36,780 nucleotides of DNA from an uncultured Rickettsiales bacterium. Lineage in GTDB: Bacteria > Myxococcota_A > UBA796 > UBA9615. The notes beneath the pieces were generated by a model. The model saw only the letters and a program-made list of their open reading frames with translations. It made no database searches and was not told the origin of the DNA. The stretch covers positions 1 to 36,780 of the forward strand of contig CAZEIY010000002.1 in the NCBI GenBank assembly GCA_964512375.1, in the 5' to 3' direction. This document shows positions 8,015 to 33,851 of the stretch, piece after piece (the stretch's first letter is position 1; every line of letters starts with the position of its first letter). The position numbers and the translations under genes were made by a program.

Positions 8015-8062
8015 CAGGAGATTCCATCTTGTGCGGTCACGGAGCGCGATATTAGCAGGCGC

Positions 8063-8521: not shown

Positions 8522-8536
8522 TCTCTAAAGGACCTC

Positions 8537-10907: not shown

Positions 10908-10920
10908 ATTACGAATCTAT

Positions 10921-11184: not shown

Positions 11185-11383
11185 TGCATTCTCCTCCGCC
11201 GGTGCCGGCCCCGAAAATCGAGAATCGCACACCACAGATATGATTTGCGGCGAAGGGTAGGAGCGGATCGTAAGAAAGTCAATGTCTGATCCGCTTACTG
11301 CGATGCAAACGCGGCACTGCTTCCCCTTGCGCGAGGTCTGCGAACCCTCTGCCGTCGAGAAAAACGACTGTTCTTACAGGCAC

Positions 11384-19517: not shown

Positions 19518-20741
19518 CTAGTTAAAGCCGATCTGCCAGACCGCTTGGGCCGCATACGACCCATTCAGGTCGGTGCCGCTATGGCTGTTCGAGCCCGTCG
19601 CACCGATCATCCAGTAGCCGTACCAGGTGGAGCCACTGCCCGCGTTGGCAGCCACACTATCCAGGGACGAGGCCTCGGACATTGTCCCCACCTCATTGCT
19701 GGAGTAGCCAGCATGAGAAAAGGTGAGCCCCTGATTACCCAGGGCCGTCGAGATCTCCGATGCGCTGTACCCACCAGCAGATGCAAGATCGAGGTTTAAT
19801 CCCCCCATGGTGCCGGCATCAATGAGCGCAATCGAGAGAAAGTCCCCGTAGCCACCATTGGTAATGGTCGACAGAAGGGCCGTCCCCAGGTTGGCACCCG
19901 CCTCATCCAGGGCCACGGCGCTACAGGCATCGGGACTTCCGGTGCCAGCAGATACATCAGACGCCGTACTATCATCGAAGTCGATCTTGCCAATGCAGTT
20001 ACTGCAGCCGGTGACTGGACTTCCGAAGTTCGCCGTTCCTTCGATAGAGATGCTCTGCTCACAGTCGATGGTTTGATTGGCCCCATCACTCCAATAGGTG
20101 AACTTGAACGTCGCAGCGATGCCGGTAGAGCCCCCAGCGCCTGGGTTGGCGGTCATCTCAAATGAGAAGGTCAAGGCATCGAAGCTCAAGGTTCCCGTTG
20201 CGTCGTCGTCGTCGCTGGTCGTGTCGTCGTCGTCGCTGGTCGTGTCGTCATCGTCGTCGTCATCGTCATCGTCATCGTCGCCAAGACCACCACCAACACC
20301 GTTGTTGCAGTGAAGGGTTACCGAGTCATCGCTGCCGTCACAGCTGAGACCGCCAGGCGCGCACATATCGAGCATTGGTTCGCAGTTGCATGCCGGGCCG
20401 TCAGTACATGATGACGGCGCAGCACGACACGTGCCCTCATTCTCGGTGTTGTCGACCAGGCAGAACAAGTCGCCGCTGCACTGACTACCCCACAGACAGG
20501 GACCACCCGCAGGCTCGAGAGCTGCGCACGACCCCTCGGGCGAAGATGCCGGATCATCGGCCTTGCAGTATTCCTCGCCGGCAGTGCAATCAACATCTGT
20601 GAAGCACGAGTCACCATTGCCGTCATCATCATCACCACCGCCGCGCACAACACTTATGCAGCTGGTCAAGAGCAGCGCAGTGGCCACCAGACAGGACAGG
20701 GTGGCCAGAAAGACTTGTAAGCTCGATGTGTTCTTCGACAT
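19518..20741 (-). CDS. Acidic cysteine-rich lipoprotein, unknown function
   Basis: MSKNTSSLQVFLATLSCLVATALLLTSC lipobox. Cys-rich N-terminal modules (DSCFTDVDCTAGEEYC...). D11 tract followed by 2 x TTSDDDD. The Gly/Ser/Ala-rich C-terminal half matches no family I recognise. Confidence 0.6.
   Translation of the reverse strand: MSKNTSSLQVFLATLSCLVATALLLTSCISVVRGGGDDDDGNGDSCFTDVDCTAGEEYCKADDPASSPEGSCAALEPAGGPCLWGSQCSGDLFCLVDNTENEGTCRAAPSSCTDGPACNCEPMLDMCAPGGLSCDGSDDSVTLHCNNGVGGGLGDDDDDDDDDDDDTTSDDDDTTSDDDDATGTLSFDALTFSFEMTANPGAGGSTGIAATFKFTYWSDGANQTIDCEQSISIEGTANFGSPVTGCSNCIGKIDFDDSTASDVSAGTGSPDACSAVALDEAGANLGTALLSTITNGGYGDFLSIALIDAGTMGGLNLDLASAGGYSASEISTALGNQGLTFSHAGYSSNEVGTMSEASSLDSVAANAGSGSTWYGYWMIGATGSNSHSGTDLNGSYAAQAVWQIGFN
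20202..20281 (-). repeat. In-frame tandem repeat: 2 x identical 21-nt unit plus GTC/ATC (Asp codon) run
   Basis: gtcgtcgtcgtcgctggtcgt occurs at 20202-20222 and again identically at 20223-20243. An (gtc/atc)n run follows to about 20280. On the coding strand this encodes D11-(TTSDDDD)2. Confidence 0.9.
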
Positions 20742-20865: not shown

Positions 20866-22053
20866 CTAGCCCGAGAGGCTGGAGTCGACCTCTCGTAGCA
20901 ACGCCACGGTGAAGTCACGAGCGGTAATCAGCGCGTCCGCATCGACCGAATTAATATCGTCCGACTGGCTCCCAAGAGGACCCGGCGGGCGACCATTAAC
21001 CAGCCCGCTAAGGGTAATGGCCCGATGCCCCGCTCGAGTGGGCGGGCCGGCATCGGTCCGACCGGGCGAAGCAAAGGAGCGCACCAATCGGAACGCTGGC
21101 TGACTCGCAACCCGCTCGGCTGCAGCCGGAATACTGGGCCGGTACGGCAGGGTCCGCCAACGTCCCTCAGACACCGCATACGCGAGCTCACCTCGACCCA
21201 CACCTTCTAGATTGACGAACCAGGTCGAGTCACGCTCAAGCATGTGAGCAAATTGGTAGAGGAAGCCCTTCATCCCACCCGCGTCTGGCTGCCTCGCGCC
21301 GCTGGCAACCACCCACAGCTCCAGGTGCTTGAGGGGTTCGCACTTGAGTTGATGGGCAACTGCCAGGATGACAGCAAGGCTCGAGGCATTATTGACCGCA
21401 CCCTGCTGTGGTGGAGAACGCCACCAGTCCAGAGCCAGAGCCAGGGCTGCGCTATGCACGAAGACTGCACCCAGGAGACCAGCAAGAAGGACTACCACGA
21501 GCACCGAGAGATCATCGCGAGACCACTGCACCGCTGCGGCGAACAACTGGATAACTCCTGCAATCAGCACGATGGAGCCGGGATGCACCGACTTCCCTGG
21601 GAGCTCGCGGTCAAGGAAGAGGCGCCTGGCCCAGGGGAGCAGCAGCGAAGACGTGGCCGCTACATCCGAATGCGCCACCAGGATCAGTCGTCCTCGAGCC
21701 GCTGGATTATCGGACCGAGCCACCATGTTGCAGGTGATCCGTTTGAGGAGGAGCTTGCGCAAGAGCCTTGGGCTACCGCGTAGTTCACCCCAGAACGACA
21801 GCAGGGTGATGGCAGTGAGAAAGAAGGCGAAAGGCCCCGGATCGAACAGCGCCTGTAGGGCAGCCCAGAGAAAGAACAGGCTGTGCATTCCCAGGATCAC
21901 CGGAACCCGCGGGGCACACACGGCACCAGCCAGCACCGCACCCATACCCAGCTCATCAAGACGACCAGCAAGCATGGCCTGAGCCATGCGCTCGCCTTCT
22001 GAGCCGGCCTCTCGAGGGGGCAGATCGAGCACATCGCGGATGAAGTTCATCAT
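20866..22053 (-). CDS. M28-peptidase-like membrane protein, apparently with degenerate metal-binding residues
   Basis: From ATG-ATG at 22048-22053: MMNFIRDVLDLPPREAGSEGERMAQAMLAGRLDELG (typical M28 N-terminus), LILVAHSDV (HxD), GAVNNASSLAVILAVA (in place of DNASG). Hydrophobic TM-like segments are intercalated. The 94-aa N-terminal extension in the ORF track (to 22335) overlaps qhpD and is probably not translated. Confidence 0.55.
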   Translation of the reverse strand: MMNFIRDVLDLPPREAGSEGERMAQAMLAGRLDELGMGAVLAGAVCAPRVPVILGMHSLFFLWAALQALFDPGPFAFFLTAITLLSFWGELRGSPRLLRKLLLKRITCNMVARSDNPAARGRLILVAHSDVAATSSLLLPWARRLFLDRELPGKSVHPGSIVLIAGVIQLFAAAVQWSRDDLSVLVVVLLAGLLGAVFVHSAALALALDWWRSPPQQGAVNNASSLAVILAVAHQLKCEPLKHLELWVVASGARQPDAGGMKGFLYQFAHMLERDSTWFVNLEGVGRGELAYAVSEGRWRTLPYRPSIPAAAERVASQPAFRLVRSFASPGRTDAGPPTRAGHRAITLSGLVNGRPPGPLGSQSDDINSVDADALITARDFTVALLREVDSSLSG

Positions 22054-22115
22054 CGAGATGCTCTCAGTGCGTTGGTGTCCTTCATCCATGAGCCTGCAAA
22101 GTGTAGTCGGATCGC

Positions 22116-22121
22116 TATAAT
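22116..22121 (+). promoter_or_regulatory. Possible -10 box (TATAAT) for the qhp-like operon
   Basis: A perfect TATAAT at 22116-22121 lies about 50 nt upstream of the TTG(22171)/GGAG(22159-22162) candidate start of qhpD. The -35 region is poor (cTGcaA at 22094-22099). Weak evidence. Confidence 0.2.
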
Positions 22122-22170
22122 CGTGAACCCCGCAGCAGCAGCTTCCCAGCGGAACCCCGGAGTCACCCTC

Positions 22171-23589
22171 TTGCAGTTGGTTGCAGACGAGATCGTACGG
22201 CTCCCCGACAATGGGCTGCAGCACGTCTTTCACGTGCCCACATCCTCCTTCTACGAGGTGGGCAAGGAAGGCTTGGCGATGCTCGATGAGATCATGAGTC
22301 GGGACGTAATTGATAGCCTCGATGACATCGCTCACCCGTCAACGCTGAGCGAGCAGGACCGCCATGATCTCGTCGAGGACATGCGGCGTCTGCGCCTGCT
22401 GGTCCCCGAAGGCGAACGGGGGAATCCGGGAGCACTACGTGATCGACCGCCGGCAAGCGAGAGCATTCGCAACCTTGTCCTACACGTTGCTCACAACTGC
22501 AACCTCGCGTGCACCTATTGCTACGCCGACCACGGCAAGTACCAGGGCAAGGCAATGCTCATGGAGCAAGGCCAGGCACAGCGCTACATTGACTGGCTCT
22601 TTGCTCAGAGCGGTGAGCACAACAACCTGGGCATCACCTTCTTCGGCGGCGAGCCTCTGCTGAACATGCCAGTGGTGCGCGAAGCAGCTGCGTACGCCCG
22701 CGAAGTGGCTGCCAGCCATGGCAAGTCGGTCAGATTCTCTATGACCACAAACGGCACACTAATTGGTGATGCTGCCGTTAGTTTCTTCGAGGAGATCGAC
22801 TGTCAGGTCACGGTCAGCCTCGATGCGATCGGCAAACAGAACGACCGTCTCCGCCCCTTTCACAGTGGTCGCGGCTCCTACGAGTTGATCCTGAAGCGCA
22901 TCCGGCCCCTGCTGGATCGTCGCAAGGTAGCGGCACGAGTAACGATCACTCGAAAGAACCTCGACGTTGTCCGCACCGTTGAGACCCTACTGGCTCAGGG
23001 ATTTACCGAGGTAGGCTGCTCGCCGGTCGACGCCAAGGACGCCGCCTTCGATCTCAGGGGGGAGGACTACGAGCAGCTCCTGCTCGGCTTCTCCGAATTG
23101 AGCGAGCGCTTCATCTCTGCAGGTCTGAGAGGCCAACTCTACGGCTTCTCGAACATCAAGAACCTGCTGAAGGCTATCCACGATGGGCAGAACAAGGAAT
23201 ACCCCTGCGGTGCAGGGCTGCAAATGGTAGCGGGCGCACCCAATGGCGACATGAGTCTCTGCCATCGCTTTGTCGGTGAAGACGAATTTGTGCTGGGCAA
23301 CGTTGAGAAGGGCGGCATCGACCGAGACAAGCGGCTGCAAGTGCTGAGCGACATCCGCCTTGATCAGCGCAGCGATTGTGGCAACTGCTGGGCCCGGTAC
23401 ATCTGCTCGGGCGGCTGCCATCACGTCAACTTCCTGTTCGAAGGAAGCCCCCAGCGCACCTATACAAGCCACTGCGATTACCTGCGTGACTGGTACAAGC
23501 TTGGCCTGACCACCTATGCGAGACTGGTAACAGCCAAGCCAGACTTCTTCGACTCGCCGCTCCAGGCAAGCGGCACCTGTAAGCAATGA
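22171..23589 (+). CDS. qhpD: Radical SAM/SPASM peptide-modifying maturase, QhpD-like (thioether cross-link forming)
   Basis: CNLACTYC (CX3CX2C radical-SAM cluster), GITFFGGEPLL, and a C-terminal SPASM region (CGAGLQMVAGAPNGDMSLCHRF...CGNCWARYICSGGCHH). The N-terminal hVFHVPTSSFYEV peptide-binding-type segment resembles SCIFF/QhpD-class maturases. The precursor-like subunit gene follows immediately. Start uncertain: the ORF track gives TTG 22072. I prefer TTG 22171 (GGAG 8 nt upstream, third-position GC rises from here, 472 aa). Confidence 0.85.
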   Translation: MQLVADEIVRLPDNGLQHVFHVPTSSFYEVGKEGLAMLDEIMSRDVIDSLDDIAHPSTLSEQDRHDLVEDMRRLRLLVPEGERGNPGALRDRPPASESIRNLVLHVAHNCNLACTYCYADHGKYQGKAMLMEQGQAQRYIDWLFAQSGEHNNLGITFFGGEPLLNMPVVREAAAYAREVAASHGKSVRFSMTTNGTLIGDAAVSFFEEIDCQVTVSLDAIGKQNDRLRPFHSGRGSYELILKRIRPLLDRRKVAARVTITRKNLDVVRTVETLLAQGFTEVGCSPVDAKDAAFDLRGEDYEQLLLGFSELSERFISAGLRGQLYGFSNIKNLLKAIHDGQNKEYPCGAGLQMVAGAPNGDMSLCHRFVGEDEFVLGNVEKGGIDRDKRLQVLSDIRLDQRSDCGNCWARYICSGGCHHVNFLFEGSPQRTYTSHCDYLRDWYKLGLTTYARLVTAKPDFFDSPLQASGTCKQ

Positions 23590-23608
23590 GCAACTGCTGG
23601 GAACAACC

Positions 23609-23905
23609 ATGAAGAGAATCAAGCCCCTCAATATGAAGGCCCGACGCGTCGACGATGAGAGCACGAACGATGTGCGGGGCTATGCGTTCAACGACTGCTG
23701 CGCGTCCTTCGCACCAGGCTGGGAGGTTGGTCACAACGACCGAGCCGACCCTTGTCCCTGGAAGAGCGACCTCAGCTTGTGCTGGAACACGTGCTACTGG
23801 ATGGGCCAGGTACCAGACGCGCAGTCACACTCCGACTGGCTCGATGCTTGCGGCAACATCCAGCAGGACTGGCGAAGCCTCTGCACCATCCCGGATACAA
23901 AATGA
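23609..23905 (+). CDS. qhpC: Quinohemoprotein amine dehydrogenase gamma-subunit-like cross-linked peptide (CTQ-bearing subunit)
   Basis: 98 aa: ...NDCCASFAPGWEVGHNDRADPCPWKSDLSLCWNTCYWMGQVPDAQSHSDWLDACGNIQQDWRSLCTIPDTK. It matches, from my memory of the Paracoccus/Pseudomonas gamma subunits, C..DPGWEV, C.....DL..C...CWW..QV.D, DWR and the terminal FP.[DT]K. It starts 19 nt after qhpD and is linked to the next gene by an ATGA overlap. Confidence 0.85.
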   Translation: MKRIKPLNMKARRVDDESTNDVRGYAFNDCCASFAPGWEVGHNDRADPCPWKSDLSLCWNTCYWMGQVPDAQSHSDWLDACGNIQQDWRSLCTIPDTK

Positions 23906-24951
23906 ACTCCAAACTCCTCTCCTTCGTACTCGCTGGCGCGCTGGTCCTGTGCGCATCTCCTGCTCTGGCCAGTGGCACCACCGGGGCTACCGCCTGGGTC
24001 TCCTCCAACCATATTCAGGTCATCGACATTGACAACGGCTCGGTCGTCGGCCGACTCCCCTTGCGTGAATTCATCCACGAGATGCAGTTCAGCGGCACCG
24101 GTGACCGGCTCTACGTCGGCACCAGCCAGGCCCTGCGCGTGGTGGACCCCGAGCAGATGGCCTTCACTGCGGTGCTATCTGCCCGTCGCACCAAGGCCGT
24201 TGCCGTGAGCAACGACGGTGATCAGGTGTTTGCAATCCATCCGGGCGATCCTGATCTAAGTCAGCAGGCGCGCAAGGCCGGAACCCCGCTGCCCCTGGCA
24301 ACCCTCACGCACTACTCAACCGAAACCATGAGCGAAAATCGCTCATGGCAAGTACCGGCCATGAGCTTTGACGTTGCCATCTCGCCCGCAGGAGATCGTG
24401 TCTTCGTGCTCGACCCCACGGCGGGACAGGTGCAGATCTACAGCCCTACCGGCGACCTGCTCGACAAAGTCACCGTCGCTCCGCCAGATGCGAACGGACG
24501 ACCTCAGCAGGCCATGCTCGGTTGGATGGCAGTCTCACCCGACGGCCAATCCATGGTGGTGCCGGTGACCGTGGCTACCGGCGCTGTGCTCGCCCGGGTT
24601 GATCTGAGCTCATCTCCCAGCGCGCAACGCGTGTCTCGAGACCCCCTCAAGGCGAACGGCCGCGTTCAAGGTCTGGCATGGAACGCAGCCGGTGACGGCG
24701 TACTCATCACCTCCGTGGGTGGACTCTGCAACTACACAGGCGCTGGCAGTGAGCAGACCTGGACACCCCAAAAGGTCAACTATGTGGACATCGAGCCGGT
24801 CCCGGCGAGCTCACACAGCGTGGCCGTTGCACCCGTCTTCTCCGAAAAGAATAAGAGTGGGGGTGTCTCCATACTGTCCGAGCGAGGCGAAATTGTTCGC
24901 TCCATCGAGTTGAGCGACATGAGCCCCTTCTTCGTGGCGGTTCGCCCCTGA
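23902..24951 (+). CDS. qhpB: Periplasmic beta-propeller protein, QhpB (beta subunit)-like
   Basis: The ATG at 23902 overlaps the qhpC stop (ATGA). Sec signal MNSKLLSFVLAGALVLCASPALASG. Repeated YVTN/YncE-like blades (IQVIDIDNGSVVGRL, VAVSNDGDQVFAI, VAISPAGDRVFVLD, MAVSPDGQSMVVP). The assignment to QhpB rests mainly on context. Confidence 0.7.
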   Translation: MNSKLLSFVLAGALVLCASPALASGTTGATAWVSSNHIQVIDIDNGSVVGRLPLREFIHEMQFSGTGDRLYVGTSQALRVVDPEQMAFTAVLSARRTKAVAVSNDGDQVFAIHPGDPDLSQQARKAGTPLPLATLTHYSTETMSENRSWQVPAMSFDVAISPAGDRVFVLDPTAGQVQIYSPTGDLLDKVTVAPPDANGRPQQAMLGWMAVSPDGQSMVVPVTVATGAVLARVDLSSSPSAQRVSRDPLKANGRVQGLAWNAAGDGVLITSVGGLCNYTGAGSEQTWTPQKVNYVDIEPVPASSHSVAVAPVFSEKNKSGGVSILSERGEIVRSIELSDMSPFFVAVRP

Positions 24952-25055
24952 GCAAGACCCTCTACTGCCTACACGTACCAGATAGGGCTCGGCTGACAGC
25001 ACTAGCTGCTCGCTTGCAAGATCTGGGTTCTGCTCTCCCGGTCTGGGCTGACTCA

Positions 25056-25943
25056 ATGACTCCCGAGCGAATGTACTTCGGGGTGGAGTTCTGCCAGCAC
25101 CTGCTCCCAGACTCGAACGACATCATTGCAGCGGTACAGCAGTGTCATGTGCACGGGCTCAGCTTTACCCTCCTCACCCCCTATGTCACCGATCCCTACC
25201 TCGAGGAAGTGGACAGCCTGGTGGAGACAATGCTCGAACAGAATCCTGCCGACCCCGAGGTGGTAGTCAATGACTGGGGAGTACTGCGTCGACTGAAGAG
25301 GCGGTATGCCGATCGCATCAAGATTATCCTCGGACGAGGGCTCAATAGAATGATGCGTGATCCCAGGCTCCCCGACCTCGGCCCCGAACATCTTGGCGGA
25401 GATGAACAGCCCGAAGTCTGGCAGGAGGGCAGCTTCAGTAGCAGTGAATTCAGGGGCATGTTGTCCGAACAAGGCGTAGAGCGAGTAGACATCGACTATC
25501 CCCTGCAGGGGCTGCGAGCGCTCCGTGATGGACCGTTGCGATTCACTCTCCACCTCCCCTTTGGAATGATCGCGACGGGCCGGAACTGCATGGTCAACTC
25601 CTACGGCAAACCACCCTCCGTGCGTTTCATGGTTCCCCTCGCCTGTGACGCCCCATGCCGGCGGTTCACCCTGCGACTGCGTGCACCGTGGTCGAGACGC
25701 GAGTTGGGAAACACGGCGCTACCGCTGCTCAACCAGCAGAGCAGCTTCCGAAGCGGCCATCCCCCCTCACGCAGGGTCGACGTGTTGCCCGCGGGCTCTA
25801 CCGATCCAGCGCCGCGCTTTCTCCAGAAGGGCAACTCCCACTTCTATGAGCTTAATGAAGAGCAGGTTGAAGCTGCCCTGCAGTGGGCCGAGTGTCAGCC
25901 GGCACTCGATCGCATCGTGGTCGAGCCCGACCTGCCCATGTAG
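25056..25943 (+). CDS. Peptidase-U32-family protein, UbiV-like architecture (putative 4Fe-4S subunit of an O2-independent hydroxylase)
   Basis: 295 aa from ATG 25056 (the ORF track starts at TTG 25014). MYFGVEFCQHLLP (early Cys), VVVNDWGVLRRLKRRY..IKIILGRGLN (U32 core), LHLPFGMIATGRNCMV-x-ACDAPC. This reproduces the one-early-plus-three-late Cys pattern (C..CX3C) I recall for E. coli UbiV (LPLAYSARC...CETCC). Confidence 0.65.
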   Translation: MTPERMYFGVEFCQHLLPDSNDIIAAVQQCHVHGLSFTLLTPYVTDPYLEEVDSLVETMLEQNPADPEVVVNDWGVLRRLKRRYADRIKIILGRGLNRMMRDPRLPDLGPEHLGGDEQPEVWQEGSFSSSEFRGMLSEQGVERVDIDYPLQGLRALRDGPLRFTLHLPFGMIATGRNCMVNSYGKPPSVRFMVPLACDAPCRRFTLRLRAPWSRRELGNTALPLLNQQSSFRSGHPPSRRVDVLPAGSTDPAPRFLQKGNSHFYELNEEQVEAALQWAECQPALDRIVVEPDLPM

Positions 25944-25952
25944 GCTCCCGCG

Positions 25953-27044
25953 ATGAAGATCCTGGCACCTTTGAGCGACGTAAGCGAAGTCGCAGCTTTG
26001 GCCCACGCCGGAGCAGATGAATTCTTCTGTGGACTGTTTCCCGACGGCTGGTTCGAGCGCTGGGGCAGAGCCGCCTGGCCCAATCGCCGCGGTCCCGGAC
26101 CGGCCAACATCGAACACCTGGACGACCTAGCTCGCCTCGCCGACGAGGTCCACGCACAAAAGCGAGACGGTGATCCGCTCCCCCTCTTCGTCGCAATGAA
26201 CCAGCAATTCTATAGCGACGAGCAAGCCGAGTTTCTTCTAGACCAGGCACGCACCATCGCCGCACGCGGAGCCGCAGATGCCGTCATTGTAACGGACCCG
26301 GGCTTCATCAGACTGCTGCGTCGTGAGTTGCCACAGCTGCCTATCTTCGCGTCGACGGTCACGGTGACGCTTAACGCCGAGTCTGCGCTCTTCCTCCAGG
26401 AGCTCGGCTGCGAGCGGGTCATCGTGTCCAGACACCTGCACCTCGAGGAACTGGCACAGCTGCAAGCAGCCCTGCCCGATGTACAGCTGGAGGTCTTCCT
26501 ACTCAACGACAACTGCTACTTCGAAGAGGGCTTCTGCAGCACAGCGCATGCCCTGCCGGGCTTCGGTGTCTACTGCATGACCCCCTGGGAATTTGAGGTC
26601 AGCATCGACGACCAGGGCCTATTGGATGACCCTGAAGAGAAGGAGCGATGGGACTTTCTCATCGAGGAACATCTCGAGCTCCAGCGTTCTCTCTCACACC
26701 GCGGCTATGGCCAGGGCGAGACCTCTCTACCTCTCGGCCCGTGCGGACTGTGCGCTATTCCTGAGTTAATCGACCTGGGTATCCACAGCGGCAAGATCGT
26801 CGGCCGAGAGGCTGGTCTCTATCGGAAGCTACGCTCGGTGCAAGCAGTACGCTACGTTCGCGACGCCTATCTCGACAATGGCGATGCAAGCGAGACCAAG
26901 AAGAAGGCACTTGATCTGCGCGGGGACCCGAAGGGCTGCGCCGATGGCTTCTTCTGTTACTACCGATCGGCCCGTGAGCGGGGTCTAGTGGACATGCCTT
27001 CCCGCGCGCGAGGACCTCGCCCCGCGCGACGAAAGGAGCACTAG
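25953..27044 (+). CDS. Peptidase-U32-family protein, UbiU-like architecture (putative 4Fe-4S subunit of an O2-independent hydroxylase)
   Basis: MKILAPLSDVSEVAALAHAGADEFFCG, DAVIVTDPGFIRLLRRELPQLPIFASTVTVTLNAESALFLQELGCERVIVSRHLHLEEL, EVFLLNDNCYFEEGFCSTAHALPGFGVYC (CX6CX12C) and IPELIDLGIHSGKIVGREAGLYRKLRSVQAVRYVRDA. These parallel the U32 core, the CX6C...C cluster motif and the KIEGR C-terminal motif of UbiU-type proteins. The gene starts 9 nt after the preceding U32 gene. Confidence 0.8.
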   Translation: MKILAPLSDVSEVAALAHAGADEFFCGLFPDGWFERWGRAAWPNRRGPGPANIEHLDDLARLADEVHAQKRDGDPLPLFVAMNQQFYSDEQAEFLLDQARTIAARGAADAVIVTDPGFIRLLRRELPQLPIFASTVTVTLNAESALFLQELGCERVIVSRHLHLEELAQLQAALPDVQLEVFLLNDNCYFEEGFCSTAHALPGFGVYCMTPWEFEVSIDDQGLLDDPEEKERWDFLIEEHLELQRSLSHRGYGQGETSLPLGPCGLCAIPELIDLGIHSGKIVGREAGLYRKLRSVQAVRYVRDAYLDNGDASETKKKALDLRGDPKGCADGFFCYYRSARERGLVDMPSRARGPRPARRKEH

Positions 27045-28928
27045 GTGAGCGCCGTCGACGAGCCTTCGGGGCCACCACCTCCGCCTGCATTCCTCGCATC
27101 CAACATCCGCGCCGAGGGAACGCCCCCCGAAGACACTCAGGTCACCGAACATACGCCCATCCCGTGGCCAAGGGTCTTCCGTTACCTCCTCCCCTACTGG
27201 CGAGCTGAGCTTGTGCTGCTCATCGCAATGGCCATCGGCATAGGCCTGTCCCTCGTCTATCCGCTGTTGATGCGCGAGATCGTCGATGAGGTAATCGGCC
27301 CGGGTCTGAGCACCGGCGGGGACACCTCGCGGCTGATGCCCCTGGTCGGGCTAATCTTCGCGGCCACAGCGGGCGGTGTAGCGCTCTCGGCTGCAGCTGG
27401 GTGGCTGCAGACCTGGGTGACGGCAAGGGTGTTGGTGGACATTCGACTGGAGACCTTCCGGCATCTACAGAGGCTCGGGCCACTGTTCCTGGCACGCCGG
27501 CGGCTAGGTGACATTCTCTCTCGAATGGGCGGTGACCTCGCCGAGCTGCAGCAGGTCGCCACAGGAACCCTCATCGGAGTCATAGGCTCAGTCATCACTC
27601 TGATCGCCGTGGTGACAGCACTCAGCGTCCTTCAGCCGCTCCTTCTGTTGGTAGGCGCCGCCTTCATTCCCTTCGCGCTGCTACTCCTCGCCGGCCTCCG
27701 ACCTGTGATCCGCCGGCTATCGCTGCGAGTCCGTGAGCGAAACGCGGACATCTCCCACCACATGCTTGAGAACCTCTCGGGGCTGCGCTCCATACTTGCT
27801 CACGGACTGGCCGACCGTGAGTCCGACCGCTTCCGCAGCCACAACATGGCGCTGGTTCGGGTAGTGCTGCGCTATCAACTCTGGAACTCAGGCTCCGCTG
27901 GTGCCTTCCAGGTATTGGTCACCACCAACCTGCTGGCCGTGCTGGTGATCGGCGTCGGTCTCCTGCAGGACGGACAGATGACTGCTGGTGACCTCCTGGC
28001 CTTCCTGCTCTTTCAGCAGCGAATTTATGGGCCGCTTCAAGGTCTCGCCGGCACCTACATCAACCTGCAACGTGCGGCTGCTTCCATCACCCGGGTCTTC
28101 GAGATCCTCGACTCTCTGCCGCTCACCGAGGCCGACAAACCAGTTCCCGCTACCGAGCCTGTCCGAGGCAGTGTCGAGTTCCAGGACGTGTGCTTTGCTT
28201 ATGGGCCTGGTCGCGAGGTTCTCTCTCAGCTCTCTTTTCGGCACCAACCAGGAACAACAACAGCTGTAGTTGGTCCCTCTGGCGTTGGGAAGAGCACAAT
28301 CATTGACCTTCTGTTCCGCTTCGCAGACCCCGGTACGGGACAGGTCCTCATCGACGATGTCGACCTGCGACAACTCGAAGCCGCAAGCATCCTTCCCCAG
28401 TTCGCGCTGGTCAGTCAGGAACCGGTGCTCTTCGACGGCAGCTTGCGAGACAACCTTCGCTGGCTTGTTCCGGATGCCAGAGATGAACGCCTGCGAGAAC
28501 TACTCACACAGGTAGGGCTCTCGGACTTCGAGCAGGGGCTTCCTCAGGGCCTGGACACCCCCCTGGGAGATCGGGGCGTTCGCGTCTCGGCCGGCCAGAA
28601 GCAGCGCATAGGCCTCGCAAGAGCGCTACTGCGAGACCCGGTTCTGCTGGTACTCGATGAGGTCACATCATCGCTGGACTGGGAGAGCGACCGCCTGGTC
28701 ACAGACGCGATCGAGGAGCGCCGGTCACGACAACGAGGGACCCTCGTCATCAGCCATCGCCTGCAATTGGCAGCTGGCGCAGATCAAGTACTCGTGCTCA
28801 CGGAAGGACGCATCGAGGAGCGCGGTAGACACCAGGACCTGCTCAAGGCGGAAGGCCTGTACGCGAGACTCTGGCGGCTCCAACGCGGGGAGCCCGCGCT
28901 GGCACCTGCCGCCACGGAGCCCGCGTAA
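27045..28928 (+). CDS. qhpF: ABC exporter, fused permease/ATPase (QhpF-like)
   Basis: Six-TM exporter domain, then Walker A GPSGVGKST, signature LSAGQKQRIGLARAL and Walker B LVLDEVTSSLD. The GTG start at 27045 directly abuts the U32 stop and is preceded by AAAGGAG at a 6-nt spacing. No C39 peptidase domain. Confidence 0.85.
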   Translation: MSAVDEPSGPPPPPAFLASNIRAEGTPPEDTQVTEHTPIPWPRVFRYLLPYWRAELVLLIAMAIGIGLSLVYPLLMREIVDEVIGPGLSTGGDTSRLMPLVGLIFAATAGGVALSAAAGWLQTWVTARVLVDIRLETFRHLQRLGPLFLARRRLGDILSRMGGDLAELQQVATGTLIGVIGSVITLIAVVTALSVLQPLLLLVGAAFIPFALLLLAGLRPVIRRLSLRVRERNADISHHMLENLSGLRSILAHGLADRESDRFRSHNMALVRVVLRYQLWNSGSAGAFQVLVTTNLLAVLVIGVGLLQDGQMTAGDLLAFLLFQQRIYGPLQGLAGTYINLQRAAASITRVFEILDSLPLTEADKPVPATEPVRGSVEFQDVCFAYGPGREVLSQLSFRHQPGTTTAVVGPSGVGKSTIIDLLFRFADPGTGQVLIDDVDLRQLEAASILPQFALVSQEPVLFDGSLRDNLRWLVPDARDERLRELLTQVGLSDFEQGLPQGLDTPLGDRGVRVSAGQKQRIGLARALLRDPVLLVLDEVTSSLDWESDRLVTDAIEERRSRQRGTLVISHRLQLAAGADQVLVLTEGRIEERGRHQDLLKAEGLYARLWRLQRGEPALAPAATEPA

Positions 28929-29638
28929 TGGACCAGCAGCGGTGCCTGGTCGCAATCCTCGATAGTGGCGTGAGTCCGAGACATCCCCATCTGCAGGGAC
29001 TCACGGTACGGGGATTCAGCCTGGACGGAGATGGGGAGCCCTTCACACGGTCCAGCTCGTTTGCTGACCGCACGGGCCACGGCACAGCCTGCGCGGCAGC
29101 GATGTTCCGCCTCTACCCGGACATCGAGCTACTCGCTGTCCGGGTGCTGGATGCCGACCTCACCACTACCCACCTGAACCTCGCCGAGGGCATTCGACTG
29201 GCCGCGCGGGAAGGCGCCGAAGTCATCAACCTCAGCCTGGGATCACAAGAAGAGAGCAGCCAATCGGTCCTTGCTGAGGCGGTCGATGAAGCCCTGCAGC
29301 TTGGCTCCATCTGCGTCGCCGCCGCCCATCCGCAAGGTCAGACACTCTGGCCGGCAGACCTACCCACTGTGATCTCGGCTCAAAGTCACCGAAGTTGCCC
29401 CCTCCGTGACCTCTACCGCATTCCGGGCTCGCTACCGCGATTCTTGTGCCACGGCTATCCGCGTCCGGTCGAAGGCCGCCCACCCACCGACAACCTCTAT
29501 GGCCCATCCCTGGCTGCTGCCCACCTCAGCGCACGCGTGGCTCGAATCAAGGCCGAGAACAGCCCTTCTTTCGAGGCTCTGATACGACTTCTCGAGGCCG
29601 AGTGCAGCGGCGAACTTCCCAACTCAGCGACAGCCTAA
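28928..29638 (+). CDS. qhpE: Small subtilisin-like (S8) serine peptidase, QhpE-like leader peptidase
   Basis: VAILDSGVSPRHPHL (Asp), DRTGHGTACAAAM (His), YGPSLAAAHLSARVA (Ser). 236 aa with no signal peptide, as expected for the cytoplasmic QhpE type. TAATG overlap with qhpF. Confidence 0.8.
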   Translation: MDQQRCLVAILDSGVSPRHPHLQGLTVRGFSLDGDGEPFTRSSSFADRTGHGTACAAAMFRLYPDIELLAVRVLDADLTTTHLNLAEGIRLAAREGAEVINLSLGSQEESSQSVLAEAVDEALQLGSICVAAAHPQGQTLWPADLPTVISAQSHRSCPLRDLYRIPGSLPRFLCHGYPRPVEGRPPTDNLYGPSLAAAHLSARVARIKAENSPSFEALIRLLEAECSGELPNSATA

Positions 29639-31320: not shown

Positions 31321-32329
31321 GATGGATGAACTTCCAACGGAGCAGCAGCGCAGTTGGCAAGAGCTTGAGGCCTTGCTTGAGGGCCTCGAACGTCAGGGCC
31401 TCACCGAACTCCACGCTGACGACGTTCGCGAGTTGCAGCGATTGTACCGCAGAGCGAGCGCTGAACTTCTGCTCGCTCGGGGAGTTGGCGACAAAACCGA
31501 GCTCACCGACTACCTCGAGGCGCTGGTCGCGAGAGCCTACACCACGCTCCACGCACCGAGACCGCTGGACTGGCGAGCTGGAAAGCGTTTCTTCACGACC
31601 TACTGGCCGAGGATTGTGCGGAGAGAGCACCCCTACCTGCTGGCTGCCGCGGCCACCATTGCTCTCGGCTTCCTCCTGTCCTGGCTGCTCTGTCGCGCCA
31701 ACTCGGACGCCTTCGACCACTTGATGCCGGCAGAGGTTATTGCCAGCTATGGGGAGCAGCCCGACGACTACCGCGCCGAACGATTCGGGGATCTCGCTGA
31801 CGAGGATGCGGCGCTCTTCTCGGCCTACCTGGTTACGAACAACATCAGGGTCTCTCTGAAGGCATTCGCCTACGGACTCACTGCCGGCATCGGCACATGC
31901 ATCGTACTCTTCTTCAACGGAGCGATGCTTGGAGCCATCGCCGCCAACTTCGGAGGCTGGAAGATGAGCATGCCCTTCTGGGCTCTCATTCTCCCCCACG
32001 GGATCATCGAGATCTTCTCGATCGCTCTCTGTGGTGGTGGCGGCTACATCCTCGCCGATGCACTGCTTCGACCCGGCCGACGGAGTCGACTCGACTCCCT
32101 GCGATCCCGCGCGAGAGATGCCGTCGCGCTCGCAGCGATGGCGATCCCAATGCTCGCAGTGGCTGCCTTGATCGAGGGCTTCATTACTCCCCTGGCCGAG
32201 ATGAGCGACCCGCAGAAGCTGGCCTTCGCAGCCGCCACTGCGCTGGCATTAGCCCTCTACATAAAGGCTCCATGGCTGCACCGAGAACCTGACAGCGAGC
32301 CGCAGTCCTTCAGGGACGCTCCTGGCTGA
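31319..32329 (+). CDS. SpoIIM-like (stage II sporulation protein M / DUF95) membrane protein
   Basis: NNIRVSLKAFAYGLTAGIGTCIVLFFNGAMLGAIAANF and LILPHGIIEIFSIALCGGGGYIL are typical SpoIIM/DUF95 motifs. The N-terminal helical region (VRELQRLYRRASAELLLAR...YLEALVARAYTTLH) is as seen in the RDD-associated subfamily. Confidence 0.82.
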   Translation: MMDELPTEQQRSWQELEALLEGLERQGLTELHADDVRELQRLYRRASAELLLARGVGDKTELTDYLEALVARAYTTLHAPRPLDWRAGKRFFTTYWPRIVRREHPYLLAAAATIALGFLLSWLLCRANSDAFDHLMPAEVIASYGEQPDDYRAERFGDLADEDAALFSAYLVTNNIRVSLKAFAYGLTAGIGTCIVLFFNGAMLGAIAANFGGWKMSMPFWALILPHGIIEIFSIALCGGGGYILADALLRPGRRSRLDSLRSRARDAVALAAMAIPMLAVAALIEGFITPLAEMSDPQKLAFAAATALALALYIKAPWLHREPDSEPQSFRDAPG

Positions 32330-33851
32330 CGGTCATCTCGTAGTACCGCCCGCCACCTCCAGCGGTCGCATCTGCATCGGAGACGACGAGATTCCAGGTG
32401 CCTGCTGAGAGCTCCTGCGCAGGAAAGACCGCCTCTTCACCGCCGTCCCAGAGCAGCGCCCCCGGCACAGGACTGCCACAACTTCCGTCCGTGCAACAAG
32501 CCGGCAGAGTCGATGCTGCCGAATCGTCATCATCTCCAGCCGAATCGTCATCATCGCCAGCTGAATCGTCATCATCGCCCGCGACGGCTGGGCACTCTGC
32601 AGCTACAGCGGCGGGATTCACCAACCGCACCTGGACCTGAGTGGTCTCCCCATGATCTGTCCGCGCGAAGGTAACACTCAGGCGGTCTCCGTTCTGTGCG
32701 TTTACCGAGAAGAAGTCCTCGTCTCCCGCCGCACCGATTCGCCCCCAGAGGGTCGTAGAGTCAGTGCTTCCAGCTGCCGGGATCAGATCCAGGGCACCCG
32801 CGCTAGCGCTGCCATCATTTGGCTCCACTTCAGCTGGATAGCCATCAGCCGGGTCGTTCTTGGCTGCATGCAAGAAATACCAGTGATCGAAGCCACCCCC
32901 ACCCGCGGCGTCCTGCACCTCAAGATAGTAGGTGCCCGTCTCTAGCACCGGGATCCAGGCTCGATGTTCGAGCTCCCAGGTGAGGCCGTCGTAGCTACGA
33001 ATCGCCGTGCTCGCATCGGGCAGGTAGGCGGTCACCTGGGTAGTACCCTCAGAACCGCTACCGGGGAAGCCGTAGAGACGCAAGACCTCGCCCTGGACCA
33101 CATCCACTGCCAACCAGTCGACGTCACCAGATGGCTCCAAGCCGCCGCCAAGGTTGTAATTGGTCGCGTACTTACTCACCTCCCAGGGAGTGGCGTCGGT
33201 GGAGGTGTCGTTCGGCTCAGCCGCCAGCGTGGCAGCGGCGCTGCCGCCCAATCTGGCAAAGAAGACCTGATATTGGTGACCGCTGCCACCGGTAGGGGGA
33301 TCGGTGGGATCGTTGGCCCAACCTCGCTTGTCCTGTACCGAGAACCACGCTGTGCCGTTCAGGGGGACTCCCGAGTAGAAACGGGCATCCGGCGCGACAG
33401 AGTTAACCCGCTCGAAATCATCCCCAAAACCAATCTCTTCACCGGCGCTGTCGTAGTAGGTGATGAGGCAGTCGAGATTCTCCGTGTCCTCGGCACTGGC
33501 TGCGATATAGATCAAGTCCCCCTGGCTACCGTTGAAGCGAAACCAGTCCACGTCACCTGCAGGAGCAATGTAGAGCTCGGTTATGTCACCGTCTTCAACC
33601 AGCTGGGCCTCCTCCCGGGCGTTGTTCCGATCGCCCTCGACGCACAGGCCCTCCTCGCCACAGATCTCGAGACCGCTCTGAAACGAGCAATCTGTATCCA
33701 CCTCACAGGAATCACTCCCTGGCGGAGCAATTATGTCGTCGTCATCATCAACCAGATCGTCTGCAGGGGGGCAGCCCAAAGGAGCAAGAACCACCAACGC
33801 ACCAAGCAAGCAAACGAAAAATGACGAAGAGAAACGAGCGAGATGGGCCAT
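32310..33851 (-). CDS. Secreted acidic lipoprotein with three pre-peptidase-C-terminal (PPC)-like domains
   Basis: Signal/lipobox LVVLAPLGC. Cys-rich N-terminal module DSCEVDTDCSFQSGLEICGEEGLC. Three PPC-type signatures (GDVDWFRF; EPNDTSTDATPW...GDVDWLAV; EPNDGSASAGAL...GDEDFFSV). 3 x AGDDDDS repeat near the C-terminus. Confidence 0.7.
   Translation of the reverse strand: MAHLARFSSSFFVCLLGALVVLAPLGCPPADDLVDDDDDIIAPPGSDSCEVDTDCSFQSGLEICGEEGLCVEGDRNNAREEAQLVEDGDITELYIAPAGDVDWFRFNGSQGDLIYIAASAEDTENLDCLITYYDSAGEEIGFGDDFERVNSVAPDARFYSGVPLNGTAWFSVQDKRGWANDPTDPPTGGSGHQYQVFFARLGGSAAATLAAEPNDTSTDATPWEVSKYATNYNLGGGLEPSGDVDWLAVDVVQGEVLRLYGFPGSGSEGTTQVTAYLPDASTAIRSYDGLTWELEHRAWIPVLETGTYYLEVQDAAGGGGFDHWYFLHAAKNDPADGYPAEVEPNDGSASAGALDLIPAAGSTDSTTLWGRIGAAGDEDFFSVNAQNGDRLSVTFARTDHGETTQVQVRLVNPAAVAAECPAVAGDDDDSAGDDDDSAGDDDDSAASTLPACCTDGSCGSPVPGALLWDGGEEAVFPAQELSAGTWNLVVSDADATAGGGGRYYEMTVSQERP
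32521..32583 (-). repeat. In-frame 3 x 21-nt tandem repeat encoding (AGDDDDS)3
   Basis: gaatcgtcatcatctccagcc / gaatcgtcatcatcgccagct / gaatcgtcatcatcgcccgcg at 32521-32541, 32542-32562 and 32563-32583 (read directly). Confidence 0.9.

What the first reader, a model, noticed from the sequence alone, without database searches (positions are those of the whole stretch)
22072..29638. qhp-type (cysteine tryptophylquinone amine dehydrogenase) maturation operon with non-canonical content: D-C-B-U32-U32-F-E
Seen in sequence: seven same-strand genes are packed with 19 nt, an ATGA overlap, about 104 nt, 9 nt, 0 nt (TAG then GTG, with AAAGGAG upstream) and a TAATG overlap between them. They are very likely one transcript. 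They encode a radical-SAM/SPASM enzyme, a 98-aa Cys/Trp/Asp-rich peptide, a signal-peptide beta-propeller, two U32-family proteins, an ABC exporter and a small cytoplasmic subtilisin.

Established knowledge: in Paracoccus denitrificans and Pseudomonas putida the qhpADCBEFG(R) genes build quinohemoprotein amine dehydrogenase. QhpD installs three Cys-to-Asp/Glu thioethers in QhpC. QhpE removes the leader. QhpF exports the peptide. QhpG (a flavoprotein monooxygenase) hydroxylates the Trp that becomes CTQ. QhpA is the dihaem subunit.

Inference: this locus keeps D, C, B, F and E, drops A and G, and gains a U32 pair. That gene set is, to my knowledge, not a characterised variant.
Basis: partly seen in the sequence, partly recalled or inferred. 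Interest (0 to 1): 0.85.

Follow-up and report, generated by a model that had tools for sequence, protein, structure and literature searches.

The report
Amine dehydrogenase operon with U32 hydroxylases
This seven-gene operon builds a quinone-cofactor amine dehydrogenase that lacks its usual haem subunit, and in place of the oxygen-requiring flavoenzyme that normally starts cofactor synthesis it carries a pair of iron-sulfur "U32" proteins of the kind known to hydroxylate aromatic rings without oxygen.

Summary
Seven tightly packed + strand genes (22072-29638) encode:
- a QhpD-like radical-SAM enzyme;
- a true QhpC gamma-subunit precursor with every crosslink and cofactor residue conserved;
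- a secreted 7-bladed propeller related to QhpB;
- two U32-type proteins, one UbiU-like and one very divergent with a UbiV-like four-Cys pattern;
- a QhpF-like ABC exporter;
- a QhpE-like subtilisin.

No QhpA (no CXXCH haem motif anywhere in the window) and no QhpG is present.

The arrangement is not a one-off or a decayed copy. In a scan of species-representative genomes seeded with the divergent U32 protein, 35 of the 80 loci kept carry qhpC next to the U32 pair. They span Acidobacteriota, Gemmatimonadota, Nitrospinota, Bacillales, Heliobacteria, sulfate reducers and Thauera. About half of these keep QhpA. QhpG is missing from all but Thauera, which has both. In QhpC loci without the U32 pair, QhpG is usually nearby (Fisher p = 1e-5).

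Best reading: the U32 pair is an O2-independent substitute for QhpG in making cysteine tryptophylquinone. The window's enzyme is then a haem-less beta-gamma quinoprotein. I found no paper linking U32 proteins to tryptophylquinone. This is a new variant of a known kind, and it is directly testable.

The parts
22072..23589 (+). qhpD-like radical-SAM/SPASM thioether-forming maturase. The true start is probably about 100-140 nt downstream of the TTG at 22072.
   Evidence: PF04055 and PF13353. TIGR03906 is the best hit: 364 bits, model positions 9-460 of 467, below the 453 cutoff. 33% identity over 476 aa to Paracoccus pantotrophus QhpD.
23609..23905 (+). qhpC: precursor of the small gamma subunit. 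It carries the future cysteine tryptophylquinone (Cys58-Trp64) and three Cys-to-Asp/Glu thioethers (Cys30-Glu39, Cys49-Asp54, Cys62-Asp70). Extra Cys31, Cys81 and Cys92 are specific to the QhpA-less class.
   Evidence: NF037958 62.7 bits (cutoff 50) and PF08992 41.9 (cutoff 25). Residue-by-residue alignment to 1jju_C and 1jmx_G. 40-sequence alignment.
23902..24951 (+). Secreted 7-bladed beta-propeller, the counterpart of the QhpB beta subunit. Its signal peptide is MNSKLLSFVLAGALVLCASPALA, and its start overlaps the qhpC stop (ATGA).
   Evidence: No sequence-level family or PDB hit. AlphaFold2 model with pLDDT 91. Foldseek ranks 2 and 3 are QhpB 1jju_B and 1jmx_B. hhalign against a QhpB alignment: 99.8%, E 1.3e-29, 296 columns.
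25056..25943 (+). U32a: a divergent U32-like protein with a UbiV-type Cys pattern (C13...C178-x18-C197-x3-C201). Proposed Fe-S subunit of the hydroxylase pair.
   Evidence: No Pfam or NCBIfam hit. The four Cys are invariant in 21 homologues. hhalign against the U32b family: 95.5%, E 1.5e-8. The best PDB fold match is U32 protein Mk0906, 5d88, but weakly (E 8e-3). The family has 2,112 representatives at 50% identity.
25953..27044 (+). U32b: UbiU-like U32 protein with seven invariant Cys (188, 195, 208, 264, 267, 329, 335). Proposed catalytic partner of U32a.
   Evidence: PF01136 120.6 bits. Weak TrhP and UbiU NCBIfam hits, far below their cutoffs. hhalign against E. coli UbiU: 99.7%, E 5e-27; Cys188 and Cys195 align with UbiU Cys169 and Cys176, and Cys208 lies 4 alignment columns from UbiU Cys193. 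Cys conservation in 74 sequences.
27045..28928 (+). qhpF-like ABC exporter (fused transmembrane domain and ATPase, no peptidase domain). Presumed to export the crosslinked gamma peptide.
   Evidence: PF00664 and PF00005. 28% identity over 480 aa to Paracoccus QhpF. It occupies a conserved position after the U32 pair in related loci.
28928..29638 (+). qhpE-like small cytoplasmic subtilisin, the presumed leader peptidase.
   Evidence: PF00082. NF049966 QhpE is the best hit at 132.6 bits (cutoff 165). 32% identity over 206 aa to Paracoccus QhpE.

Best explanation
The operon makes a periplasmic cysteine-tryptophylquinone (CTQ) amine dehydrogenase from only two subunits: the propeller beta and the crosslinked gamma peptide. 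There is no dihaem alpha subunit. Maturation follows the qhp logic except for one step.

Proposed sequence:
1. QhpD installs the three Cys-to-Asp/Glu thioethers in QhpC.
2. The U32a/U32b pair, an Fe-S heterodimer built like UbiU-UbiV, hydroxylates the indole ring of Trp64 without O2. It takes the place of the FAD monooxygenase QhpG. By analogy with UbiU-UbiV it probably uses prephenate as oxygen donor.
3. QhpE removes the leader.
4. QhpF exports the peptide.
5. The peptide docks on the secreted propeller, where the Cys58-Trp64 link and the quinone are completed.
6. Electrons from amine oxidation go to a separately encoded acceptor.

What is shown: gene content, homologies, conserved residues, and the conserved and widespread linkage of the U32 pair to qhp genes with QhpG missing. 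What is inferred: the U32 pair's substrate and chemistry, the heterodimer, the oxygen donor, the two-subunit composition and the electron acceptor.
For: 1. Every QhpC crosslink and cofactor residue is conserved. D, E and F have their best matches to the Qhp families. B is QhpB-like by fold and by profile.

2. U32b is homologous to UbiU, with two of UbiU's cluster-binding Cys aligned and a third within 4 alignment columns. U32a has four invariant Cys in a C-xn-C-x18-C-x3-C pattern, like UbiV's C-xn-C-x12-C-x3-C (motif from PMC6747719). UbiU-UbiV is a heterodimer with one [4Fe-4S] cluster per subunit. It carries out O2-independent aromatic hydroxylation with prephenate as oxygen donor (PMC6747719, PMC10990095). 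QhpG's reaction is dihydroxylation of the Trp ring of crosslinked QhpC (PMC7876137).

3. In the genome scan seeded with U32a, 35 of the 80 loci kept carry qhpC beside the pair. They come from at least 7 phyla and show at least three gene orders: B-Ua-Ub-F-E, B-F-E-Ua-Ub (L112), and Thauera's B-porin-aldehyde dehydrogenase-Ua-Ub. No other neighbour recurs near the pair.

4. QhpG is absent within 10 kb in all of these except Thauera (L066 and L142), which has a true QhpG (NF049967, 331 bits) as well as the pair. This mirrors the coexistence of aerobic Ubi hydroxylases and UbiUV in facultative anaerobes.

5. Among loci with ample flanks, U32-positive loci have QhpG in 0 of 19. U32-negative loci have it in 13 of 20 (Fisher p = 1.3e-5).

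6. QhpA is present in about half of the U32-positive loci. The pair therefore tracks loss of G, not loss of A.

7. Hosts include strict anaerobes: Desulforhabdus, Syntrophobacteraceae, Desulfobacterales and Heliobacteria.
Against: - There is no biochemical evidence. The link rests on gene neighbourhood and homology.
- The loci were found through U32a, so ascertainment is biased. The Fisher test ignores shared ancestry.
- QhpG is also missing within 10 kb in 7 of 20 U32-negative loci. A distant qhpG therefore cannot be excluded for this genome, of which only 36.8 kb is visible.
- U32a's membership of the U32 family is weak. It has no Pfam hit, the Foldseek E-value is only 8e-3, and hhalign against the single UbiV sequence is not significant.
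- The window's relatives come from oxic surface-ocean samples (Tara deep-chlorophyll-maximum and Red Sea). Several hosts are aerobes (Aneurinibacillus, Brevibacillus, Blastocatellia). The pair is therefore not simply an 'anaerobe' marker.
- No U32 protein is known to act on a protein substrate.
- The same U32 pair also occurs without qhp genes in 45 loci.
Confidence: 0.6

Rival explanations
1. The U32 pair helps qhp maturation but is not the Trp hydroxylase. It might make an extra crosslink (many U32-type QhpCs have an additional Cys-x5-Asp-Trp motif), complete the Cys-Trp bond or the quinone oxidation, or shuttle electrons to QhpD. Hydroxylation would then come from a distant QhpG or from the assembled enzyme itself.
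For: Extra conserved Cys occur in QhpCs of U32-type loci: C81-x5-D87, plus Cys31 and Cys92 in the QhpA-less class. U32b has four invariant Cys beyond a UbiU-like set, enough for a second cluster. QhpG is not always near qhp genes, even where there is no U32 pair (7 of 20 loci).
Against: The Thauera QhpC lacks the extra Cys yet keeps the pair. The strong negative association with QhpG points to the same step. All characterised U32 members are linked to ring hydroxylation.
Confidence: 0.2
2. The two U32 proteins are peptidases, as the family name says. They would process QhpC or the propeller.
For: The Pfam name Peptidase_U32. One database source names a homologue 'collagenase and related proteases'.
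Against: The leader peptidase QhpE is retained. Invariant Fe-S-type Cys motifs occur in both proteins. Characterised relatives (UbiU/UbiV, TrhP, RlhA) are hydroxylation factors, not proteases.
Confidence: 0.04
3. The cluster makes an exported thioether peptide natural product (a ranthipeptide-like RiPP) rather than an enzyme subunit. The propeller would be unrelated to it.
For: The rSAM enzyme scores nearly as well with the PapB and SCIFF maturase models as with QhpD. An ABC exporter and a protease are typical of RiPP clusters. The alpha subunit that normally wraps the gamma peptide is missing.
Against: The CTQ Cys and Trp and the catalytic Asp are invariant across all classes. The propeller gene is translationally coupled to qhpC and is QhpB-like. 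Sister loci keep full QhpA and QhpB, or a haem-less alpha remnant. The Thauera version sits next to a phenylacetaldehyde-dehydrogenase-like gene.
Confidence: 0.06
4. It is a decaying or accessory paralogue of a complete qhpADCBEFG cluster located elsewhere in the same genome.
For: Only 36.8 kb of a metagenome-assembled genome is visible. The D and E scores fall below the NCBIfam cutoffs.
Against: All seven ORFs are intact, and the same order is found in at least 10 species-level relatives at 40-89% identity. QhpC of this class forms its own conserved sequence type.
Confidence: 0.03

Closest known systems
Quinohemoprotein amine dehydrogenase system qhpADCBEFG(R) of Paracoccus denitrificans / Pseudomonas putida (canonical example fetched here: Paracoccus pantotrophus pPAN2, L085)
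   Same: QhpC has identical crosslink and CTQ residues. The cluster has a QhpD-type rSAM enzyme, a QhpB-like propeller, a QhpE-type subtilisin and a QhpF-type ABC exporter. The genes are clustered on one strand.
   Different: There is no dihaem alpha subunit QhpA, so the enzyme is not a 'hemoprotein'. There is no flavin monooxygenase QhpG. Two U32-type Fe-S proteins are inserted between qhpB and qhpF. QhpC has a CC doublet and two extra C-terminal Cys. The beta subunit is too divergent for the QH_beta model.
UbiU-UbiV (with UbiT): O2-independent, prephenate-dependent hydroxylases of anaerobic ubiquinone synthesis
   Same: Two adjacent U32-type genes, one UbiU-like and one with the UbiV-style 'first Cys far upstream' motif. 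The conserved Cys are suited to [4Fe-4S] clusters. The pair stands where an O2-dependent flavin monooxygenase otherwise acts. In a facultative anaerobe (Thauera) it coexists with the aerobic enzyme.
   Different: The pair is not orthologous to UbiU-UbiV: the UbiU model gives 49.8 bits against a cutoff of 440. There is no UbiT. The presumed substrate is a Trp in a crosslinked peptide, not a prenylated phenol. U32b has four additional invariant Cys.
TrhP and RlhA (U32 proteins needed for ho5U34 in tRNA and ho5C2501 in 23S rRNA)
   Same: They belong to the same family, and the TrhP model is the best NCBIfam hit for U32b. They carry out O2-independent hydroxylation of an aromatic ring in a macromolecule.
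   Different: Their substrates are RNA and they are single proteins. Here there is a pair, embedded in a protein-cofactor operon.
Methylamine / aromatic amine dehydrogenases (TTQ enzymes, mau clusters)
   Same: These are haem-less periplasmic tryptophylquinone dehydrogenases built from a 7-bladed propeller subunit and a small crosslinked quinone-bearing subunit. They pass electrons to a separate carrier. This is what the window's beta-gamma enzyme would work like.
   Different: Their cofactor is TTQ (Trp-Trp), matured in the periplasm by the dihaem MauG. They have no rSAM thioethers and are not homologous to QhpC.
LodA/GoxA CTQ oxidases with the flavoprotein maturases LodB/GoxB
   Same: They are CTQ enzymes without a haem subunit.
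   Different: They are single large polypeptides, oxidases that use O2, and are matured by a QhpG-like flavoprotein. They have no gamma peptide, rSAM enzyme or U32 proteins.

Membership tests
QHNDH gamma subunit (QhpC; NF037958 / PF08992) | Scores above the curated family cutoffs | tested here: met
   NF037958 62.7 bits against 50. PF08992 41.9 bits against 25.
QHNDH gamma subunit (QhpC) | Four Cys, one Glu, two Asp and the CTQ Trp at the positions crosslinked in 1JJU/1JMX | tested here: met
   C30, E39, C49, D54, C58, C62, W64 and D70 align with C7, E16, C27, D33, C37, C41, W43 and D49. These positions are invariant in 40 sequences. The crosslinks themselves were not observed.
QhpD (TIGR03906) | Equivalog-level score to the QhpD model | tested here: inconclusive
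   It is the best of 71 rSAM models and covers almost the full model length, but 364 bits is below the cutoff of 453. The gene lies directly upstream of qhpC.
QhpB beta subunit (TIGR03907) | Match to the QH_beta sequence model | tested here: not met
   No NCBIfam or Pfam hit, and no PDB sequence hit.
QhpB beta subunit | Secreted 7-bladed propeller encoded next to qhpC and homologous to QhpB | tested here: met
   The model has pLDDT 91. 1jju_B and 1jmx_B rank 2-3 by Foldseek. hhalign gives 99.8%, E 1e-29. The ATGA overlap with qhpC is present. Generic YVTN and WD40 propellers score similarly, so orthology is not proven.
QhpE (NF049966) | Equivalog-level score; small subtilisin without a signal peptide | tested here: inconclusive
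   It is the best hit at 132.6 bits, below the cutoff of 165, and covers model positions 2-211 of 219.
Quinohemoprotein amine dehydrogenase (holoenzyme) | Dihaem c-type cytochrome alpha subunit QhpA in the cluster | tested here: not met
   No CXXCH motif in any ORF of 100 aa or more in the window. No tblastn match to Paracoccus QhpA. The rest of the genome was not seen.
Canonical qhp maturation pathway | Flavin monooxygenase QhpG (NF049967) | tested here: not met
   No tblastn match to QhpG in the window or in 10-kb flanks of the syntenic relatives. The model does recognise QhpG in Thauera L066 and in Paracoccus.
Peptidase_U32 family (PF01136) | Pfam domain match | tested here: met
   U32b (25953-27044): 120.6 bits against 22.4.
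Peptidase_U32 family (PF01136) | Pfam domain match, for the first gene (25056-25943) | tested here: not met
   No hit for the window protein. Only 3 of 21 homologues hit, at E of 0.015 or worse. There is remote support only: hhalign 95.5% against the U32b family, and the top fold match is 5d88 at E 8e-3.
UbiU-UbiV O2-independent hydroxylase | Equivalog score to UbiU/UbiV and presence of UbiT | tested here: not met
   The UbiU model gives 49.8 bits against 440. There is no UbiV hit and no UbiT-like gene in the window. The pair works like UbiU-UbiV but is not a member.
UbiU-UbiV O2-independent hydroxylase | Four-Cys [4Fe-4S] motifs in each subunit | tested here: met
   U32a has the motif C13...C178-x18-C197-x3-C201, invariant in 21 homologues. 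In U32b, C188 and C195 align to UbiU C169 and C176 and C208 lies 4 columns from C193; further invariant Cys are present. Cluster binding itself was not tested.
UbiU-UbiV O2-independent hydroxylase | Heterodimer formation, O2-independent hydroxylation, prephenate as oxygen donor | not testable with these tools
   This needs protein biochemistry.

The most novel reading that the evidence does not exclude
A dedicated pair of Fe-S U32 proteins hydroxylates a tryptophan inside a crosslinked peptide without O2. This would give bacteria, strict anaerobes included, an oxygen-independent route to the cysteine tryptophylquinone cofactor. It would be the first protein substrate for the U32 hydroxylase family. 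In this lineage the product would be a haem-less two-subunit CTQ 'quinoprotein' amine dehydrogenase, a composition not described for QhpC enzymes.
Probability: 0.55. Interest if true: 0.85.

Novelty: new variant of a known kind. Interest (0 to 1): 0.75.

Why it matters
All described routes to tryptophylquinone cofactors start with an O2-dependent oxygenation: QhpG, LodB/GoxB, or the first step before MauG. Yet a quinohemoprotein amine dehydrogenase is reported to work in anaerobically grown Aromatoleum. I know this only from the title of Schmitt et al. 2019, cited in PMC11231019; the paper itself could not be read. qhpC clusters also occur here in sulfate reducers and Heliobacteria. The U32 pair is a concrete candidate for the missing anaerobic step, and it can be tested.

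The finding would widen the chemistry of the poorly understood U32 family from quinones and RNA to proteins. It would also give a function to a family of more than 2,000 sequence clusters that currently match no curated model. Finally, it defines a haem-less class of QhpC enzymes whose electron acceptor is unknown. Automatic annotation still calls these 'quinohemoprotein amine dehydrogenase'.

Tried and rejected
- Sequence searches of the propeller and of U32a against PDB chains, alone and as a profile, gave nothing useful. Pairwise BLASTP of the two U32 proteins was not significant.
- hhalign of the U32a profile against single E. coli UbiV or UbiU sequences was not significant. The 'UbiV-like' label therefore rests on the Cys pattern and gene pairing only.
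- I looked for a c-type cytochrome (CXXCH) in the window and in the QhpA-less relatives. None lies in the operons.
- I looked for cryptic QhpC-like peptides near U32 pairs that lack qhp genes and found none. I also looked for any other recurrent neighbour of the pair and found none.
- The 519-aa gene after qhpE in L003 was checked as a possible QhpA. It has no haem motif and looks like an outer-membrane protein.
- A QhpC alignment spanning all classes was too diverse for the metagenome scan. The scan was rerun with canonical-like sequences only, so that survey is biased towards Proteobacteria-type QhpC.
- Schmitt et al. 2019 (PMC6657600) is not held.
- Literature searches for QhpG+U32, tryptophylquinone+U32, QHNDH/UbiU/prephenate and U32+SPASM+amine dehydrogenase found no paper connecting the two systems. 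The QhpG paper and its supplements do not mention such variants.
- No + strand terminator or convincing internal promoter was found.

Full report
**What is in the sequence.** Seven + strand ORFs fill 22072-29638. No terminator-like site lies on the + strand inside the cluster. Upstream is a divergent M28-type peptidase gene. Downstream is a TPR/zincin gene, followed by RDD, SpoIIM-like, DUF58/VWA and MoxR genes. The rest of the window is housekeeping genes (ffh, pnp, truB, glycosyltransferases).

**The gene products.**
- Gene 1 is a radical-SAM/SPASM enzyme. Its best curated family is QhpD (TIGR03906), at 364 bits over nearly the whole model, below the 453-bit cutoff.
- Gene 2 passes both QH-gamma models. 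It aligns to the gamma subunits of the two solved enzymes with all chemically relevant residues in place: Cys30/Glu39, Cys49/Asp54, Cys62/Asp70 and the CTQ pair Cys58/Trp64.
- Gene 3 has a Sec signal peptide and no sequence-level family. Its AlphaFold2 model (pLDDT 91) is a 7-bladed propeller. The QhpB chains 1jju_B and 1jmx_B rank second and third among 350,542 PDB chains. A profile of this family matches a profile of bona fide QhpB proteins at 99.8% probability, E 1e-29. Other propellers score similarly by fold. The call 'QhpB counterpart' therefore rests on fold, profile and the translationally coupled position together.
- Gene 5 is a clear Peptidase_U32 protein. It is homologous to E. coli UbiU over 257 columns (99.7%, E 5e-27), with Cys188 and Cys195 aligned to UbiU's cluster ligands Cys169 and Cys176 and Cys208 within 4 columns of Cys193. 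It has seven invariant Cys in 74 homologues.
- Gene 4 hits no curated model. Its family has four invariant Cys, one near the N-terminus followed by C-x18-C-x3-C. This arrangement was described as peculiar to UbiV (PMC6747719). A profile comparison links its N-terminal half to the gene-5 family (95.5%). The best fold match of its model (pLDDT 84) is the U32 protein Mk0906, though weakly. I therefore call it a divergent U32-like partner.
- Genes 6 and 7 are an ABC exporter and a small subtilisin. The subtilisin's best family is QhpE, and the exporter's closest tested Qhp counterpart is QhpF.

**What is missing.** No ORF of 100 aa or more anywhere in the window contains a CXXCH haem motif. tblastn with Paracoccus pantotrophus QhpA and QhpG, taken from an annotated canonical locus (L085), finds nothing in the window.

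**Is it real and conserved?** The gene-4 protein has 129 relatives in the large protein collection. It has 2,112 representatives at 50% identity in the exhaustive search. A relative on a 930-kb contig shows the same seven genes in the same order and the same flanking genes. A scan of one genome per species with the gene-4 family returned 80 loci. Ten are close, syntenic relatives labelled 'Deltaproteobacteria bacterium' or 'uncultured Rickettsiales', at least some from marine samples (Tara Red Sea; a Tara deep-chlorophyll-maximum relative). All have intact D-C-B-Ua-Ub-F-E at 40-89% identity. This excludes a decayed copy.

**The wider pattern.** Of the 80 loci, 35 carry qhpC beside the U32 pair. 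They come from Acidobacteriota/Blastocatellia, Gemmatimonadota, Nitrospinota, Bacillales (Aneurinibacillus thermoaerophilus, Brevibacillus, Bacillus aerolatus), Heliobacteria, Desulforhabdus, Syntrophobacteraceae, Desulfobacterales and Thauera.
- Seventeen keep a full QhpA. For example, Aneurinibacillus scores 427 bits to TIGR03908. The usual order is A-D-C-B-Ua-Ub-F-E, or C-A-D-B-Ua-Ub-F-E in Bacillales.
- The rest lack QhpA in the DNA held. One Acidobacteriota-like group keeps a haem-less remnant containing alpha-subunit domain IV (PF09100) and has a second propeller.
- QhpC of the QhpA-less loci forms its own sequence class, with a CC doublet and two extra C-terminal Cys.

QhpG is absent within 10 kb in every U32-type locus except Thauera mechernichensis. 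That locus has a true QhpG (NF049967, 331 bits), an AraC regulator, A-D-C-B, a porin-like gene, a phenylacetaldehyde-dehydrogenase-like gene and then the U32 pair.

**The converse survey.** A metagenome scan seeded with canonical-type QhpC gave 80 loci.
- Twenty-four of the 80 show QhpG, and only two show a U32 pair. One of those two has the new order B-F-E-Ua-Ub, and the other is the Thauera type with QhpG.
- Counting only loci with ample flanks, QhpG is present in 0 of 19 U32-positive loci and in 13 of 20 U32-negative loci (Fisher p = 1.3e-5).
- The test is not corrected for shared ancestry, and the two samples were ascertained differently.

Where the pair lacks qhp genes (45 loci, for example Desulfosporosinus), no other neighbour recurs and no hidden QhpC-like peptide is present.

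**Mechanism proposed.** QhpG dihydroxylates the CTQ-precursor Trp of crosslinked QhpC within a QhpC-D-G complex and needs O2 (PMC7876137). UbiU-UbiV is a heterodimer with one [4Fe-4S] cluster per subunit. It hydroxylates the aromatic ring of ubiquinone precursors without O2 (PMC6747719), using prephenate as oxygen donor (PMC10990095). TrhP and RlhA link the family to ring hydroxylation in RNA. Four points favour the pair being an O2-independent substitute for QhpG:
- the pair has a UbiU/UbiV-like architecture;
- it is embedded among qhp maturation genes;
- QhpG is missing where the pair is present;
- both coexist in a facultative denitrifier.

Loss of QhpA is a separate event. It predicts that the window's enzyme is a beta-gamma quinoprotein that hands electrons to a separately encoded carrier, as TTQ dehydrogenases do. 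I put about 0.6 on the substitution model. Identification as a qhp-type CTQ system is about 0.9. The prephenate donor is analogy only.

**Caveats.**
- The window's clade lives in oxic seawater and several hosts are aerobes. 'O2-independent' should therefore not be read as 'anaerobic only'.
- A qhpG elsewhere in the genome cannot be excluded.
- U32a's family membership is weak.
- No U32 protein has yet been shown to act on a protein.

**Novelty.** Full-text searches found no paper holding both 'tryptophylquinone' and 'U32' and none linking QhpG, QHNDH or amine dehydrogenase with U32, UbiU or prephenate. A 2025 review lists only QhpG and QhpA for CTQ biogenesis in QHNDH (PMC11951088). NCBIfam (June 2026) has models for QhpG and QhpE but none for either U32 protein. 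This is a new variant of a known system, with a specific and testable biochemical prediction.

Noticed in passing
window 23609-23905, and the QhpC genes of L016, L022, L029, L038, L042, L045, L053 and others: Most QhpCs from U32-type loci have an extra Cys five residues before the invariant Asp-Trp (C-x5-DW). The spacing matches the known Cys27-x5-Asp33 thioether. Canonical Paracoccus, Pseudomonas and Thauera QhpC lack it. It could be a fourth QhpD-made crosslink. The QhpA-less class adds Cys31 and Cys92, a possible disulfide.
   Followed up: partly
L066 (Thauera mechernichensis TL1) 44-11742; also L142 and L054: One cluster carries both a true QhpG and the U32 pair. It also holds QhpA-D-C-B, an AraC regulator, a porin-like gene (Alginate_exp) and a phenylacetaldehyde-dehydrogenase-like gene. 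It is a natural system for testing aerobic against anaerobic CTQ maturation.
   Followed up: partly
L019, L020, L030 (Acidobacteriota-like MAGs), about 4700-5650 and 8700-9830; L021: QhpA-less clusters here keep a secreted protein of about 300 aa. It contains only alpha-subunit domain IV (PF09100) and no haem motif. A second propeller gene lies between qhpB and the U32 pair. This looks like an intermediate stage in alpha-subunit loss.
   Followed up: partly
L045, L016, L068, L071 (Aneurinibacillus, Brevibacillus, Bacillus aerolatus): Gram-positive Bacillales carry a complete C-A-D-B-Ua-Ub-F-E cluster with a dihaem QhpA, although they have no periplasm. I do not know of a characterised Gram-positive QHNDH.
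   Followed up: no
L001/L037 (Acididesulfobacillus), L036, L043, L047, L072, L076, L081 (Desulfosporosinus), and archaeal loci L040, L050, L061, L080: The same U32a-U32b pair occurs without any qhp gene in 45 of the loci, including Firmicutes anaerobes and archaea (in the archaea the gene order is reversed). There is no recurrent neighbour, so the substrate there is unknown.
   Followed up: partly
L003 14638-16197; the same insertion in L010, L011, L014: Some close relatives have an extra gene after qhpE for a 519-aa secreted protein with no Pfam hit. From its sequence I judged it a likely outer-membrane barrel, but this was not tested. The window lacks this gene. It could be an uptake channel for the substrate, by analogy with the porin in the Thauera cluster.
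   Followed up: no
L029, L032 (Acidobacteria/Blastocatellia): Here the cluster is D-C-Ua-Ub-F-E, with neither qhpA nor qhpB within 8 kb upstream. The maturation module is separated from the structural subunits.
   Followed up: no
window 19518-20741 (-) and 32310-33851 (-): Two predicted secreted or lipoprotein-type proteins have long poly-Asp tracts (DDDDTTSDDDD, DDDDSAGDDDD repeats). One has a Dickkopf-like Cys-rich region and the other a PPC domain.
   Followed up: no
window 25953-27044: U32b has four invariant Cys (264, 267, 329, 335) beyond the three UbiU-like Cys (188, 195, 208). This is enough for a second Fe-S cluster, which UbiU does not have.
   Followed up: partly
window 22072-22335: The longest ORFs of the rSAM gene (+) and of the divergent M28 peptidase gene (-) overlap by 264 nt. 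Both starts are probably over-extended, so the real intergenic promoter region is likely near 22000-22170.
   Followed up: no
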